DNA from: a virus
Lineage: Duplodnaviria > Caudoviricetes
Strand: one strand, 5' to 3'
Length of the DNA stretch: 64,000 nucleotides
Virus record (IMG/VR): IMGVR_UViG_3300033074_000233
Coordinates: 96,001 to 160,000 of that record
Positions 45,040 to 48,919 of the stretch are shown in pieces. Each line of letters opens with the position of its first letter. Position 1 is the first letter of the stretch. A program made the position numbers and the translations under genes. The notes under the pieces are model-generated. The model was not told where the DNA came from, did not search any database, and saw only the letters and a program-made list of their open reading frames with translations.

Positions 45040-45348
45040 ATGACGTTTCCTATTCCCGATGACCAACTTGAAGCCGAGGCGCGCAAACTGTTCAACCCTG
45101 AACTGATCTACGCTGTCACAGGTGCCCAAGGCAAGCAACTTGGCCTTGTGATAAAGGCTTTCACCAAGGCTTGGTTCACGCCTGAACACTTCAACCACTG
45201 GTGTGTTACAGTGGGTGAGGAACTGGTACATAGCACCTTCAAGGAGTGGTGGGCTAAGGAGTCGAAAGACCCGAACAGCGAACTTATGATCGGATTCAAC
45301 ATTCACGCCGAGAACATGCGAAAAGGAACTACGAAACATGACAATTAA
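45040..45348 (+). CDS. Hypothetical protein
   Basis: ORF coupled to rtcB. Confidence 0.5.
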   Translation: MTFPIPDDQLEAEARKLFNPELIYAVTGAQGKQLGLVIKAFTKAWFTPEHFNHWCVTVGEELVHSTFKEWWAKESKDPNSELMIGFNIHAENMRKGTTKHDN

Positions 45349-46531
45349 AACGACCTTTCAAGGACACGAGGTTCCTGTCTTTGCTTGGACGGAGGATATT
45401 GAATACTCCGCGATAGAACAGTTGCTGAACCTTAGCCGACTTCCTATCATGTTCAAGCACGTTGCTGCAATGCCTGACGTACACATGGGCGTAGGGGCCT
45501 CAGTAGGAACCGTCATTGCAACCAAAGGCGCTATCATTCCCTCGGCTGTTGGCGTAGACATTGGCTGTGGTATGATTGCAGCCAAGACAAACCTCAACGC
45601 GAGTGACTTACCTGACAATCTACACGCGCTGCGCCATAGCATTGAGCGTTCCATTCCACTAGGTGCAGGTGGTGCGAACTCTAAGGAGTCCGAAGACATT
45701 CGCAAGCCTTGGATGGCAAGCCTTGATGCCGACCACGAAATACTTATCGCTTTGCATCCTGAGTTGAAAACGAAGTACAATCCAAGACAGCAGTTGGGAA
45801 CGCTGGGCTCAGGCAACCACTTCATAGAGGTCTGCCTTGATACCAATGACTCCGTCTGGATAATGCTTCACTCAGGTTCGCGAGGTATCGGCAATCTTAT
45901 TGGCCGCGCTTTCATATCCAAAGCCAAGAAGTATGCTGAGGAGTTTGAGATTCACTTGCCTGATCGTGACCTTGCGTATCTGAATGACGGAACAAAGGAG
46001 TTCGCCGAGTATGTCTTTGCCTTGAACTTTGCTCAAAGGTTCGCAGAGATAAACCGTGAGGTGATGTTTAGTCGTGTTATAAAAGACCTTACTCACTTTA
46101 TGAAGCGTCCTGTAGAAATACTTGGGCACACGGTCAACTGCCATCACAACTACTCCACCATTGAGAATCACTTTGGTGAGGACGTATGGATCACCCGTAA
46201 GGGTGCGGTGAATGCAGCTAAAGGAACTTGGGGTATTATTCCTGGGTCTATGGGCACTAAGTCCTATATCGTTGAAGGCAAGGGTGAAGAAAACTCCTTC
46301 TGCTCTTGTTCGCATGGTGCAGGACGTAGAATGTCCAGAGGAGACGCAAAGCGCAAGTTTACCTTGCAGGATTTGATTGACCAGACCTCAGGTGTTGAAT
46401 GCCGAAAGGACGCTAATGTGATTGACGAAATCCCAGGTGCGTATAAAGACATTGACGTGGTAATGGAAAACCAATCTGACTTGGTAGACGTGCGCGCTGT
46501 TTTGCGTCAAGTCCTTTGTGTGAAAGGGTGA
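45338..46531 (+). CDS. rtcB: RtcB RNA ligase
   Basis: MPDVHMG, VGVDIGCG, GSGNHFIE, HSGSRG, HN, PGSMG, SHGAGR, YKD. Confidence 0.95.
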   Translation: MTIKTTFQGHEVPVFAWTEDIEYSAIEQLLNLSRLPIMFKHVAAMPDVHMGVGASVGTVIATKGAIIPSAVGVDIGCGMIAAKTNLNASDLPDNLHALRHSIERSIPLGAGGANSKESEDIRKPWMASLDADHEILIALHPELKTKYNPRQQLGTLGSGNHFIEVCLDTNDSVWIMLHSGSRGIGNLIGRAFISKAKKYAEEFEIHLPDRDLAYLNDGTKEFAEYVFALNFAQRFAEINREVMFSRVIKDLTHFMKRPVEILGHTVNCHHNYSTIENHFGEDVWITRKGAVNAAKGTWGIIPGSMGTKSYIVEGKGEENSFCSCSHGAGRRMSRGDAKRKFTLQDLIDQTSGVECRKDANVIDEIPGAYKDIDVVMENQSDLVDVRAVLRQVLCVKG

Positions 46532-46534
46532 AGC

Positions 46535-47062
46535 ATGAATAAGCCGAAGGAGTATGAACGGACCGTTATCCGAATTAAGGGTCCCTTCCGAATCCTAAAC
46601 TACGAACTGAACCCTCGACCCATCTTTTTGGCTCATGGTTTGTTCAAGCGCATGATGACCAATGCTGGCGGTCGTCTTCCTCTTGCTGGTGTACCTGCAG
46701 GGGTAGACATTGATCTGGAAGTCAAACTGGATGCTGAGTTACGCTGGCGAGACAAGAAGGCCGTGAGCAAACTTGCTGACCTTGCTTCGTATCCAGTCAA
46801 GGGTCTTGCACCGGGCACTGTATTCGTAGAGGAGGCACGCAGCAACTTCCTCTTTTACGGCAACTGTTGGTGGCACCTAGACCAGACTGTGCGTAACACC
46901 GAATCTCCAACAGAGGATGAGGAGGGGCAGCAACGCTTTACCAAATCCATTGAGAAGATGGAGAAAGAGCAAAGCAGGATCGCTGGGACGAGCATTGTGC
47001 GAGAGTCCAGTGGAACATTAACCATGCGCGATAGACCCTACTATCGCAAAAACGGAGAGTAA
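46535..47062 (+). CDS. Hypothetical protein
   Basis: 175-aa ORF. Confidence 0.55.
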   Translation: MNKPKEYERTVIRIKGPFRILNYELNPRPIFLAHGLFKRMMTNAGGRLPLAGVPAGVDIDLEVKLDAELRWRDKKAVSKLADLASYPVKGLAPGTVFVEEARSNFLFYGNCWWHLDQTVRNTESPTEDEEGQQRFTKSIEKMEKEQSRIAGTSIVRESSGTLTMRDRPYYRKNGE

Positions 47063-47280
47063 TATGGACTTTGATACTTGGATGAAAGAGTGCCGGCGCT
47101 TGGCCCTTGAGAAGGGTCTGCGTATTCCTGATGACCTGGACGAGGAACAGGCCTTCTTCTGGAAGAACCAGCATGACAACGCTATGATGGCCACAGAGGC
47201 CGTGTTCTACTACCAACAGACGCTGAACGAAGGAGGCTAATGGGCAATTCTGTAAAGTAAGTGTGCAAGAAGCGTAACCA

Positions 47281-47357
47281 CGGGGATTAGCACAGCCTGG
47301 TAGTGCGTCTGCTTTGGGAGCAGAAGGTCGCAGGTTCAAATCCGTCATCACCGGCCA
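47281..47357 (+). tRNA. tRNA-Pro(UGG) with stem mismatches
   Basis: TCTGC-TTTGGGA-GCAGA; one acceptor-stem and two T-stem mismatches. Confidence 0.75.
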
Positions 47358-47364
47358 GTTCAAT

Positions 47365-47482
47365 GGGGTTGGCGAGGACGTATCTTCGCTTTGCAATGGA
47401 GAAGGACTGGACGAAATTCTCCTGAGGTGCAGCAATAGGTGTGAAAGCCTGTTGCGCGGGTTCGACTCCCGCAACCCCACCA
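47365..47482 (+). ncRNA. 118-nt tRNA-like RNA with non-canonical D and anticodon arms
   Basis: GGGGTT/AACCCC-ACCA, T-arm GCGGG-TTCGACT-CCCGC, three internal hairpins. Confidence 0.65.
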
Positions 47483-47486
47483 TTTT

Positions 47487-47518
47487 GCGCCCGTGGCTCA
47501 GATGGATAGAGCAACGAC
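47487..47518 (+). pseudogene. 5' half of an interrupted tRNA-Arg
   Basis: GCGCCCG-TG-GCTC-AGATGGATA-GAGC-A-ACGAC; pairs with the 3' half at 48098-48130. Confidence 0.8.
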
Positions 47519-47534
47519 TATTTATAGGCTATCT

Positions 47535-48008
47535 ATGTGGAAGATTGAGAAAATCGTCAGCAAGGGTGCCTATAACTATGCTGTAGTTAGAGATCATCCA
47601 AATGCAATCAAATACGGATACGTGTTACACCATAGGATAGTTGTAGAAAATCACCTTAAAAGACTTCTGAAAAGAAATGAAGTAGTACATCACATAAACG
47701 GAAAAAAGAAAGACAATCGCCTTAAAAACCTGAAGGTTGAGGATGCTATAACACATGGCAGACTACACGGAATTGAGCAGGGTCGCTTATGGGTAAGTCT
47801 TAGATGTCCTTGGTGCGCCTGCACTTTTCAGCGACCTAGAAACACAACTCACTTGCAGAAGCCCTCAAATCTGAAGGTAACGTGTTGTGGTCCGTCGTGT
47901 AGAGGAAATTTTTCTAGGTACGTTCAGTTGCACGGCAAAACCTTGAGGCTAAAATTAGCAGTTGATGCTAATGTTCAGAAAATATATCGAATATATCAAA
48001 AATTATAG
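47535..48008 (+). CDS. HNH homing endonuclease inserted in tRNA-Arg
   Basis: HPNA...YVLHHRIVVE...EVVHHINGKKKDNRLKNL; C-terminal CxxC...CC...C. Confidence 0.85.
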   Translation: MWKIEKIVSKGAYNYAVVRDHPNAIKYGYVLHHRIVVENHLKRLLKRNEVVHHINGKKKDNRLKNLKVEDAITHGRLHGIEQGRLWVSLRCPWCACTFQRPRNTTHLQKPSNLKVTCCGPSCRGNFSRYVQLHGKTLRLKLAVDANVQKIYRIYQKL

Positions 48009-48085
48009 GGCTGTATCGGAACGGCCTTCTAAGCCGTAGTACCGTAACTGGATCAATGCGAGTTCGAGTCTCGCCAGTCCTACCA
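48007..48085 (+). tRNA. Non-canonical tRNA-Arg(UCU) lacking a normal D-arm
   Basis: AGGGCTG/CAGTCCT-ACCA, ACGGC-CTTCTAA-GCCGT, GCGAG-TTCGAGT-CTCGC. Confidence 0.7.
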
Positions 48086-48097
48086 AGAATTTGCGCT

Positions 48098-48130
48098 AGG
48101 TCGCTGGTTCGAGTCCAGCCGGGCGCACCA
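48098..48130 (+). pseudogene. 3' half of an interrupted tRNA-Arg
   Basis: AGGTC-GCTGG-TTCGAGT-CCAGC-CGGGCGC-ACCA. Confidence 0.8.
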
Positions 48131-48181
48131 CCGAGTTCGATTGTACAGTCGGACAAATGTCAACCACAGAGGTAAGTACCC

Positions 48182-48679
48182 ATGGGTATCAAAACGAAAG
48201 ACAAGAAGTCCACCAAGTCGAAAGGCAAGGAAGAGATCGTGAAGAAAAAGAAGAAGTCGAAGGAAGGCGAGAAAGTAGAACGCTCGTCCAAGAAAAAGAA
48301 GGGCGAGAAGAAAGCGCGCAAAGTAAAAGCCGTGATCGAAGTCAAGCCGATCAAGGAAAAACTGAGCCGCATGGGCCTTATCAATCACCTGGTTGATGAG
48401 ACCGCTGTCGAAGCCAAGTCTGTCAAGAAAGTCCTGGCTGCCCTGGAAGCCACGATCAAGGGTTCGATTATGAAGAAAGGTCTGGGCGAGTTCACCTTCC
48501 CAGGTCTGTTCAAAGTCAAAACCAAGTTCAAGCCGAAGCAGAAAGGCGGCGAGAAGAAGAAGAACCCGTTCAAGCCGGGCGAGTTCATCATCACCAAGCC
48601 GAAGCCCGCTTCGATCAAGGTCAAAATCCTGGCAATGAAGCGTTTAAAGGATGCGGCTGCCCTGCCGCCGAAAGAGTAA
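48182..48679 (+). CDS. HU/IHF-family DNA-binding protein with Lys-rich N-terminal extension
   Basis: LINHLVDET...VKKVLAAL...FTFPGLFK...NPF...KVKI. Confidence 0.8.
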   Translation: MGIKTKDKKSTKSKGKEEIVKKKKKSKEGEKVERSSKKKKGEKKARKVKAVIEVKPIKEKLSRMGLINHLVDETAVEAKSVKKVLAALEATIKGSIMKKGLGEFTFPGLFKVKTKFKPKQKGGEKKKNPFKPGEFIITKPKPASIKVKILAMKRLKDAAALPPKE

Positions 48680-48919
48680 GCACGGTTCAGAGAGTCAGGT
48701 GCTGCCTTCACGCGGGCACCTTATCCTCTGCATAGCAGTTCTGTAAAGTAAACGCACAACAGGAGAAGCAAACTTGTGATTTAGACTGTCCGCGCTATAC
48801 CCTAACCCATGAGACACAGGAGGTACTCGTATGTCACAAATCCGTTAGACCCGAGCCTAATACCAATAGCCTCGGGTCTTTTTGTTTCCTAAACCCATTT
48901 CCAAGCGCGGAGAAGAACA

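What the first reader, a model, noticed from the sequence alone, without database searches (positions are those of the whole stretch)
48007..48085. Rearranged tRNA: the D-loop sequence lies after the anticodon arm
Seen: acceptor, anticodon and T arms are intact, but only TATCGGA links the acceptor to the anticodon arm, while the variable position holds AGTA-CCGT-AACTGGAT-CAAT, which resembles U8A9 plus a D-stem strand plus a D-loop with its GG. CGG before the anticodon arm can pair with CCG after it. Inference: an L-shaped tRNA with swapped connectivity that may evade the HNH or host anticodon nucleases and would be poorly scored by standard tRNA finders.
Basis: partly seen in the sequence, partly recalled or inferred. 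Interest (0 to 1): 0.72.

Follow-up and report, generated by a model that had tools for sequence, protein, structure and literature searches.

The report
Rewired phage arginine tRNA beside nuclease
This 79-base phage gene is very probably a working arginine tRNA with half of its D-arm moved behind the anticodon arm, a non-cloverleaf layout shared by over 200 mostly phage sequences and missed by tRNA finders; here it arrived with a DNA-cutting gene and replaced an ordinary arginine tRNA.

Summary
Observation confirmed. 48007-48085 is a tRNA-Arg(UCU) in which block 10-21 (5' D-stem strand plus D-loop) lies between positions 47 and 48, not after position 9.

I collected 214 distinct homologues, mostly from phages: 183 with Arg anticodons, 31 with Ile/CAU. 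Displaced D-stem pairs 23:12 and 24:11 are Watson-Crick in 214/214 and 212/214, with all four pair types. The Levitt pair 15:48 co-varies (A-U 189, G-C 19). Position 20 follows synthetase identity: A in Arg, U in Ile. Clusters carrying the rewired gene rarely keep an ordinary tRNA-Arg(UCU) (4/66 against 37/85). ARAGORN misses 207 of 213.

Here the gene and an HNH nuclease sit inside a broken ordinary tRNA-Arg(UCU); one contig from a related phage has that gene intact. Seven of eight inspected close HNH relatives lie in group I introns of that tRNA.

One correction: U8-A9 stay after the acceptor stem. Folding, charging, decoding and nuclease immunity are inferred; no RNA data were found. I found no paper describing the layout. 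This scan has reported the class repeatedly on other DNA, and one later check of that claim says part of it fell (which part, I could not retrieve).

The parts
48007..48085 (+). Rewired tRNA-Arg(UCU) gene, 79 nt with encoded CCA
   Evidence: family model R1 92.6 bits against at most 33.5 for the genome's ordinary tRNAs (the window was in the training set)
48007..48013 (+). Acceptor stem 5' strand (pairs with 48075-48081)
48014..48015 (+). U8-A9, in their normal place
   Evidence: invariant in alignment A1
48016..48020 (+). Positions 22-26: 3' strand of the D stem (CGG = 23-25), then A26
   Evidence: covariation with 48042-48044
48021..48037 (+). Anticodon arm; anticodon UCU at 48028-48030, A37 A38
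48038..48041 (+). Positions 44-47: variable spacer that now leads into position 10
   Evidence: 3-5 nt in 206 of 214 members
48042..48056 (+). Displaced block 10-21: CCG (10-12), U13, A14, A15, G18G19 (48050-51), A20 (48052), A21 (48056)
   Evidence: the nucleotide before 48 is A in 211 of 214
48057..48057 (+). U48, Levitt partner of A15 (48047)
   Evidence: A-U 189, G-C 19 of 214; p 4e-10 on 81 representatives
48058..48085 (+). T arm, acceptor 3' strand, A73, CCA
47535..48008 (+). HNH endonuclease gene (157 aa); its stop codon overlaps the first two bases of the tRNA
   Evidence: Pfam HNH_3, E 1.8e-5, just under the cut-off; close relatives in group I introns of tRNA-Arg(UCU)
47487..47519 (+). 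5' remnant of an ordinary tRNA-Arg(UCU): acceptor strand, D arm, 5' anticodon strand
   Evidence: intact allele in a related phage
48097..48130 (+). 3' remnant of the ordinary tRNA: variable loop, T arm, acceptor strand, CCA

Best explanation
The gene encodes a working tRNA-Arg(UCU) whose core is a block transposition of the ordinary class I tRNA. The chain runs acceptor - 8,9 - 22-26 - anticodon arm - 44-47 - 10-13 - D-loop 14-21 - 48 - T arm, with three new backbone links (9 to 22, 47 to 10, 21 to 48). Shown by comparison: the D-stem pairs and the 15:48 pair persist. Inferred: U8-A14, G18-U55 and G19-C56 also form, so the RNA keeps the L shape; it is matured by RNase P, charged by host ArgRS through A20 and C35, and reads AGA. 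At this locus it came with a free-standing HNH nuclease descended from a family that homes into tRNA-Arg(UCU) genes. The cassette overwrote the middle of the ordinary gene (supported by one empty-allele contig). The rewired gene restores the tRNA and probably lacks the DNA sequence the nuclease cuts (inferred; about 0.55 on its own).
For: Covariation that the search patterns did not select, except: 23:12 WC 214/214, 24:11 212/214, 25:10 161/214, 15:48 208/214. Mutual information of the first two pairs ranks among the acceptor-stem pairs. 0/500 shuffles reach the covariation score and slid controls fall from 0.56 to at most 0.13. The layout occurs with five Arg anticodons and three Ile/CAU anticodons. 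N20 is A in 182/183 Arg and U in 30/31 Ile/CAU; N73 is A in all 31 Ile/CAU. This matches the identity table of PMC9976931 (Arg A20, C35, A/G73; Ile U20, A73). A scan demanding non-A at 20 returned only Ile/CAU members. Near exclusion with the ordinary UCU gene: 4/66 against 37/85 clusters, p 1e-7, and 2 of 27 whole phage records. No other Arg tRNA was found in this 216-kb record, where AGA is 12% of Arg codons. Empty allele: a contig from run X1 joins the same flanks through an intact 77-nt tRNA-Arg(UCU). HNH relatives at 47-62% identity: 7 in group I introns after base 34 of tRNA-Arg(UCU), 1 free-standing beside another rewired tRNA-Arg(UCU).
Against: No transcript, structure, charging or decoding data. 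RNAalifold does not predict the 3-bp D stem, and in the window a local CC/GG hairpin has the same energy. Pair 25:10 is broken in a quarter of members (G-G 29, C-A 14). A20 was built into the pattern that fetched most UCU members. Members are related and no tree-based correction was possible on 79 nt. Control clusters hold more tRNAs (15.3 against 11.3), which inflates the exclusion test. The empty allele is one contig at depth 5.9. The HNH target was not determined, and the anticodon arm it may recognise is still present. The record is an estimated 84% complete. An earlier check of the same claim on other DNA found that part of it fell (detail not retrievable).
Confidence: 0.7

Rival explanations
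1. The RNA folds into an L shape and may be charged, but acts as a tRNA mimic or decoy (for a host nuclease, synthetase or sensor) and does not decode on the ribosome.
For: Plant-virus tRNA-like structures are charged but do not take part in protein synthesis (PMC9976931). Some irregular tRNAs are charged but not used (PMC5389517). The rerouted 44-47 linker lies on a face that ribosomes and modifying enzymes may contact (inference).
Against: Ordinary 7/5 acceptor-T branch, ordinary 7-nt anticodon loop with U33 and A37, a full set of Arg isoacceptors (four in L084), and near exclusion with the ordinary gene.
Confidence: 0.15
2. It is a working tRNA, but the rewiring was selected mainly to escape host tRNA-cutting defences that read the core; the HNH neighbour is incidental.
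For: Only about 5 of 160 rewired UCU genes have this HNH family beside them, and Ile and other Arg isoacceptors are rewired too. Septu cuts a variable loop (PMC13096335 abstract), and T5 tRNAs differ from host tRNAs around the D-loop (PMC12475279).
Against: No nuclease was identified. The anticodon loop is unchanged. At this locus the link to a tRNA-Arg(UCU)-associated HNH is specific. This rival concerns why, not what, and can hold together with the best explanation.
Confidence: 0.3
3. It is a D-armless tRNA, like mitochondrial tRNA-Ser(AGY), with a long variable loop and no restored core.
For: Only three arms appear in single-sequence and alignment folding.
Against: Strict linker-to-strand covariation, the Levitt pair co-varying within both Arg and Ile members, identity-linked N20, and invariant A14.
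Confidence: 0.05
4. It is a precursor that is cut and re-ligated into a cloverleaf, as permuted tRNA genes are, perhaps using the phage RtcB 1.5 kb upstream.
For: RtcB at 45338-46531. Moving the block back in silico gives a cloverleaf that ARAGORN accepts (199/214).
Against: It needs three cuts and three joins inside the core. Five complete phage genomes with the gene have no RtcB, although a host could supply it.
Confidence: 0.03
5. It is a recombination scar, pseudogene or assembly artefact.
For: It lies in a disrupted tRNA locus beside a mobile nuclease.
Against: 214 distinct homologues, the nearest only 80% identical, with compensated stems; present in cultured phages; no differences in two DNA runs.
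Confidence: 0.02

Closest known systems
Ordinary class I bacterial and phage tRNA-Arg(UCU) (Rfam RF00005; E. coli argU type, recalled from memory)
   Same: 7-bp acceptor stem, 5-bp T and anticodon stems, U8, A14, R15-Y48, G18G19, A20, C35, U36, A37, T-loop, A73, CCA; length 79 against 73-77 nt
   Different: No D hairpin. The D stem encloses the anticodon arm and the D-loop lies just before position 48.
D-armless mitochondrial tRNAs (PMC9976931)
   Same: No D hairpin after the acceptor stem
   Different: Here the D stem and D-loop are kept but moved, the length is not reduced, and the T-loop is fully standard.
Allo-tRNAs and irregular tRNAs (PMC5389517)
   Same: Non-canonical bacterial or phage tRNAs missed by finders; some read AGA/AGG
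   Different: Those have 8/4 or 9/3 acceptor branches, a D hairpin in place and a long variable arm; the window gene is 7/5 with changed strand order.
Circularly permuted and split tRNA genes of algae and archaea (PMC3978253, PMC3218864; titles and abstracts only)
   Same: Gene order differs from the cloverleaf
   Different: Those are processed back to a cloverleaf. Here the ends are normal and an internal block is moved.
Plant-virus tRNA-like structures (TYMV, BMV) and the tmRNA tRNA-like domain
   Same: tRNA-like function reached with other connectivity
   Different: TLSs sit at genome ends and do not decode. tmRNA has no anticodon arm and its D-loop lies 5' (own knowledge).
T4 SegB and intronless homing (PMC2330249, PMC3984707)
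   Same: Free-standing homing endonuclease in a phage tRNA cluster that spreads with its flanks
   Different: SegB is GIY-YIG and reads the T arm. This HNH family is tied to the tRNA-Arg(UCU) anticodon, mostly inside group I introns; here a rewired gene stands where the intron core would be.

Membership tests
Canonical cloverleaf tRNA (RF00005) | 7-bp acceptor stem, discriminator, CCA | tested here: met
Canonical cloverleaf tRNA (RF00005) | D hairpin between acceptor and anticodon arms | tested here: not met
   7-nt linker only; Rfam deletes the arm
Canonical cloverleaf tRNA (RF00005) | 5-bp anticodon stem, 7-nt loop with U33 and purine 37; T arm with TTCRA | tested here: met
Canonical cloverleaf tRNA (RF00005) | Tertiary core: D-stem pairs and Levitt pair 15-48 | tested here: met
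   covariation
Canonical cloverleaf tRNA (RF00005) | L-shaped fold with U8-A14, G18-U55, G19-C56 | tested here: inconclusive
   the bases are invariant and partly required by my patterns, so they carry no covariation; no 3D tool for RNA
Bacterial tRNA-Arg identity set | A20, C35, U/G36, A/G73 (PMC9976931) | tested here: met
   all four in the window; A20 tracks Arg anticodons
Bacterial tRNA-Arg identity set | Arginylation and decoding | not testable with these tools
   needs experiment
D-armless mitochondrial-type tRNA | Loss of D stem and D-loop | tested here: not met
   both kept, displaced
Allo-tRNA | 8/4 or 9/3 acceptor branch, long D stem with tetraloop, long variable arm | tested here: not met
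   7/5 in the window; definition
Permuted tRNA gene | 3' half upstream of 5' half, restored by processing | tested here: not met
   5' and 3' ends are in normal order
Group I intron in tRNA-Arg(UCU) | Ribozyme core between HNH gene and 3' exon | tested here: not met
   no RF00028 match in the window; core motifs seen in relatives (Rfam confirms weakly for L607 only)
Free-standing HNH homing endonuclease | HNH motif in an intact ORF, and an allele lacking it at the same site | tested here: met
Free-standing HNH homing endonuclease | Cleaves the empty allele but not its own | not testable with these tools
   needs a cleavage assay

The most novel reading that the evidence does not exclude
A natural class of elongator tRNAs that cannot be drawn as a cloverleaf, made by moving block 10-21 behind the anticodon arm, decodes on bacterial ribosomes. 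It occurs almost only in Arg and Ile, two families with an identity base at D-loop position 20, and is spread at some loci by tRNA-targeting homing nucleases because the rewired gene is immune to them.
Probability: 0.5. Interest if true: 0.88.

Novelty: new variant of a known kind. Interest (0 to 1): 0.74.

Why it matters
If it decodes, the cloverleaf strand order is not required for tRNA function on bacterial ribosomes, and the tRNA core tolerates a three-link rewiring. That bears on tRNA evolution and on the design of orthogonal tRNAs. Phage tRNA sets are undercounted or misnamed (ARAGORN misses 207/213; records say tRNA-Ser or tRNA-OTHER), which affects codon-compensation and defence-evasion arguments. 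The locus also shows a way for a homing nuclease to lose its intron ribozyme and still keep the target gene's function. Cultured phages carry the gene, so it can be tested directly.

Tried and rejected
Single-strand folding: not significant and blind to the D stem. RNAalifold: recovers only three stems. Local CC/GG hairpin: possible in only 102/214 members; a self-contained D hairpin in the variable region in at most 52/214; both rejected. In silico un-permutation: 199/214 recognised by ARAGORN, against about 100 with a shuffled block, but 186-197 with a mismatched block from another member, so it tests D-loop likeness and not stem pairing. A scan for rewired genes with a C13-A14-G15 D-arm gave no new amino-acid class; it added only further Arg and Ile members, including one Arg(CCG). 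Expression: no RNA holder listed; contigs cannot show it. ARAGORN with introns at relaxed score: noise. No promoter-like site on the + strand in 46800-48800. The TTATAGG repeat at both ends of the HNH gene: 8 copies in the window against 4.15 expected, and the upstream copy matches the ribosome-binding region seen in L616; not treated as a target duplication. Relatives of the HU gene gave no usable allele: different tRNA content or too little DNA. HNH tree: quick method only, labels not clustered. Ten literature searches; those aimed at the layout found no description, but the library lacks most subscription papers. I could not find which part of the earlier-checked claim fell.

Full report
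Observation. The window is part of a 216-kb virus record. Positions 41.7-48.2 kb hold a tRNA cluster. ARAGORN finds five tRNAs and misses 48007-48085. Rfam RF00005 matches it at 40.7 bits by deleting the D arm and inserting about 17 nt in the variable region. Acceptor, anticodon (UCU) and T arms, A73 and CCA are intact; a 7-nt linker precedes the anticodon arm and 20 nt follow it. The single sequence folds no better than shuffles, so the case rests on comparison.

Family. Pattern scans of viral, genome and metagenome contigs and a parser that ignores linker pairing, position 20 and position 48 gave 214 distinct members. Of these 183 have Arg anticodons (UCU 162, ACG 9, CCU 6, UCG 5, CCG 1) and 31 have UAU, GAU or CAU; one Lys(CUU) gene was also seen. 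Only about 14 members came from 185,579 cellular genomes, and 4 of 5 such genomes tested also have an ordinary UCU gene. Cultured carriers include SOVA965, DC31, Atu_ph04, Slicko01, Mildred21 and TomSawyer, where the gene is unannotated or misnamed.

Structure. The fourth and fifth linker bases pair with the two bases before the conserved U-A-R motif in 214/214 and 212/214 members, with all four Watson-Crick types. The third pair holds in 161/214. In an all-against-all analysis of 93 UCU members the first two pairs ranked 10th and 5th of 1891, among the acceptor-stem pairs. On a 50-sequence alignment no shuffle reached the covariation score and slid partners lost it. The third base of the motif co-varies with the base before the T stem (A-U 189, G-C 19, G-G 4), which is the Levitt pair. 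This holds within Ile members (G-C 8, A-U 6) and on 81 representatives (p 4e-10). The base before 48 is A in 211/214, as expected for A21. The simplest description is one block move: 10-21 sits between 47 and 48. The D stem is nested around the anticodon arm, so no pseudoknot is needed in this subclass. From established tRNA structure (own knowledge), A9 contacts 12-23, 45 contacts 10-25 and A21 stacks by 48, so the three new links join neighbours in space; I could not model this. RNAalifold does not predict the short stem.

Signs of function. Position 20 is A in 182/183 Arg and U in 30/31 Ile/CAU members, and all 31 of the latter have A73. This matches the bacterial identity sets in PMC9976931. 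Most UCU members were fetched with A20 in the pattern. The unbiased support is that the scan free at 20 gave Arg with A and Ile with U, the scan demanding non-A gave only Ile/CAU, and the ACG, CCU and UCG genes, found as neighbours or in the anticodon-free scan, carry A20. Among dereplicated clusters of six or more tRNAs, an ordinary tRNA-Arg(UCU) is present in 4/66 with the rewired gene and 37/85 without (p 1e-7; other anticodons differ much less). In 27 whole phage records only 2 hold both. This is what functional replacement predicts, but it is indirect and not corrected for relatedness.

This locus. An HNH gene (47535-48008) ends in the tRNA's first two bases. Gene and tRNA lie between the 5' (47487-47519) and 3' (48097-48130) remnants of an ordinary tRNA with a 7/7 acceptor stem. 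A contig in run X1 matches 47398-47494 and 48098-48331 with 36 other bases between; assembled, it is an intact 77-nt tRNA-Arg(UCU). This is the empty allele, from one low-depth contig. Of eight close HNH relatives inspected (47-62% identity), seven lie in group I introns inserted after base 34 of an ordinary tRNA-Arg(UCU), and one (L617) is free-standing beside another rewired tRNA-Arg(UCU). The window has no ribozyme core. More distant HNH genes (32-36%) flank rewired UCU genes in L095, L161, L120 and L623, and a further profile hit does so in L257; none flanks any of 76 intact ordinary ones. I infer that the nuclease cuts the intact ordinary gene and that the rewired gene does what the intron did: it keeps the tRNA while breaking the target, as in intronless homing (PMC3984707; SegB, PMC2330249). 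This explains a minority of loci, not the class.

Mechanism, by status. Shown in sequence: the layout, its conservation, the D-stem and Levitt covariation, identity-linked position 20, near exclusion with the ordinary gene, and the replacement at this locus. Inferred: L shape, RNase P maturation, ArgRS charging, AGA decoding (0.7 together) and HNH immunity (0.55). Unsupported so far: escape from anticodon nucleases.

Comparison and novelty. It works like a tRNA-Arg but fails the cloverleaf test, and it is not a D-armless, allo- or permuted tRNA. I found no description in the papers searched, including the allo-tRNA paper (passages read) and the outline of a 2020 review. The library is incomplete. 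This scan has reported the same class, and the HNH link, on many other genomes. Those notes are not independent evidence, and one later check of the claim says part of it fell, without detail available to me. Verdict: a real, strongly conserved new structural variant of tRNA with untested function; interest 0.74.

Noticed in passing
window 47365-47482 (+): 118-nt RNA with tRNA acceptor stem, T arm and CCA but three other arms and no normal anticodon loop; fold z -4.15. The related contig keeps it with one compensatory change, one consistent change and one broken pair.
   Followed up: partly
window 47281-47357 (+): tRNA-Pro(UGG) has one mismatch in the acceptor stem and two in the T stem; possibly decaying.
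   Followed up: no
window 48006-48008: The HNH stop codon overlaps the tRNA 5' end, so RNase P cleavage would leave the HNH message without a stop, a possible brake on the nuclease. SOVA965 lacks the overlap.
   Followed up: no
L027:4738-4822, L057, L091, L109, L115, L127, L130, L144, L145, L164, L183, L188, L195: Second UCU subfamily with a 9-10-nt linker, a longer linker helix and apparently an 8/4 acceptor-T branch.
   Followed up: no
L607-L610, L616, L618, L619: HNH-bearing group I introns in the anticodon of phage tRNA-Arg(UCU) genes; these split genes are missed by ARAGORN where tested.
   Followed up: partly
L084; L149:11000-11080; L484:3109-3206: One phage with four rewired Arg isoacceptors; a rewired Lys(CUU) candidate; a possible rewired Tyr gene with a longer insert.
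   Followed up: no
L122:1501-1579, L740:697-774, L742:896-975, window 48007-48085: Misannotations: tRNA-Ser in Slicko01, tRNA-OTHER in Mildred21, an overlapping coding gene on an Arg(CCU) member in TomSawyer; ARAGORN in mitochondrial mode calls the window gene Gly(acc).
   Followed up: yes
window 45338-46531 and 48182-48679: RtcB RNA ligase and an HU-like protein with a lysine-rich N-terminus flank the tRNA group.
   Followed up: partly
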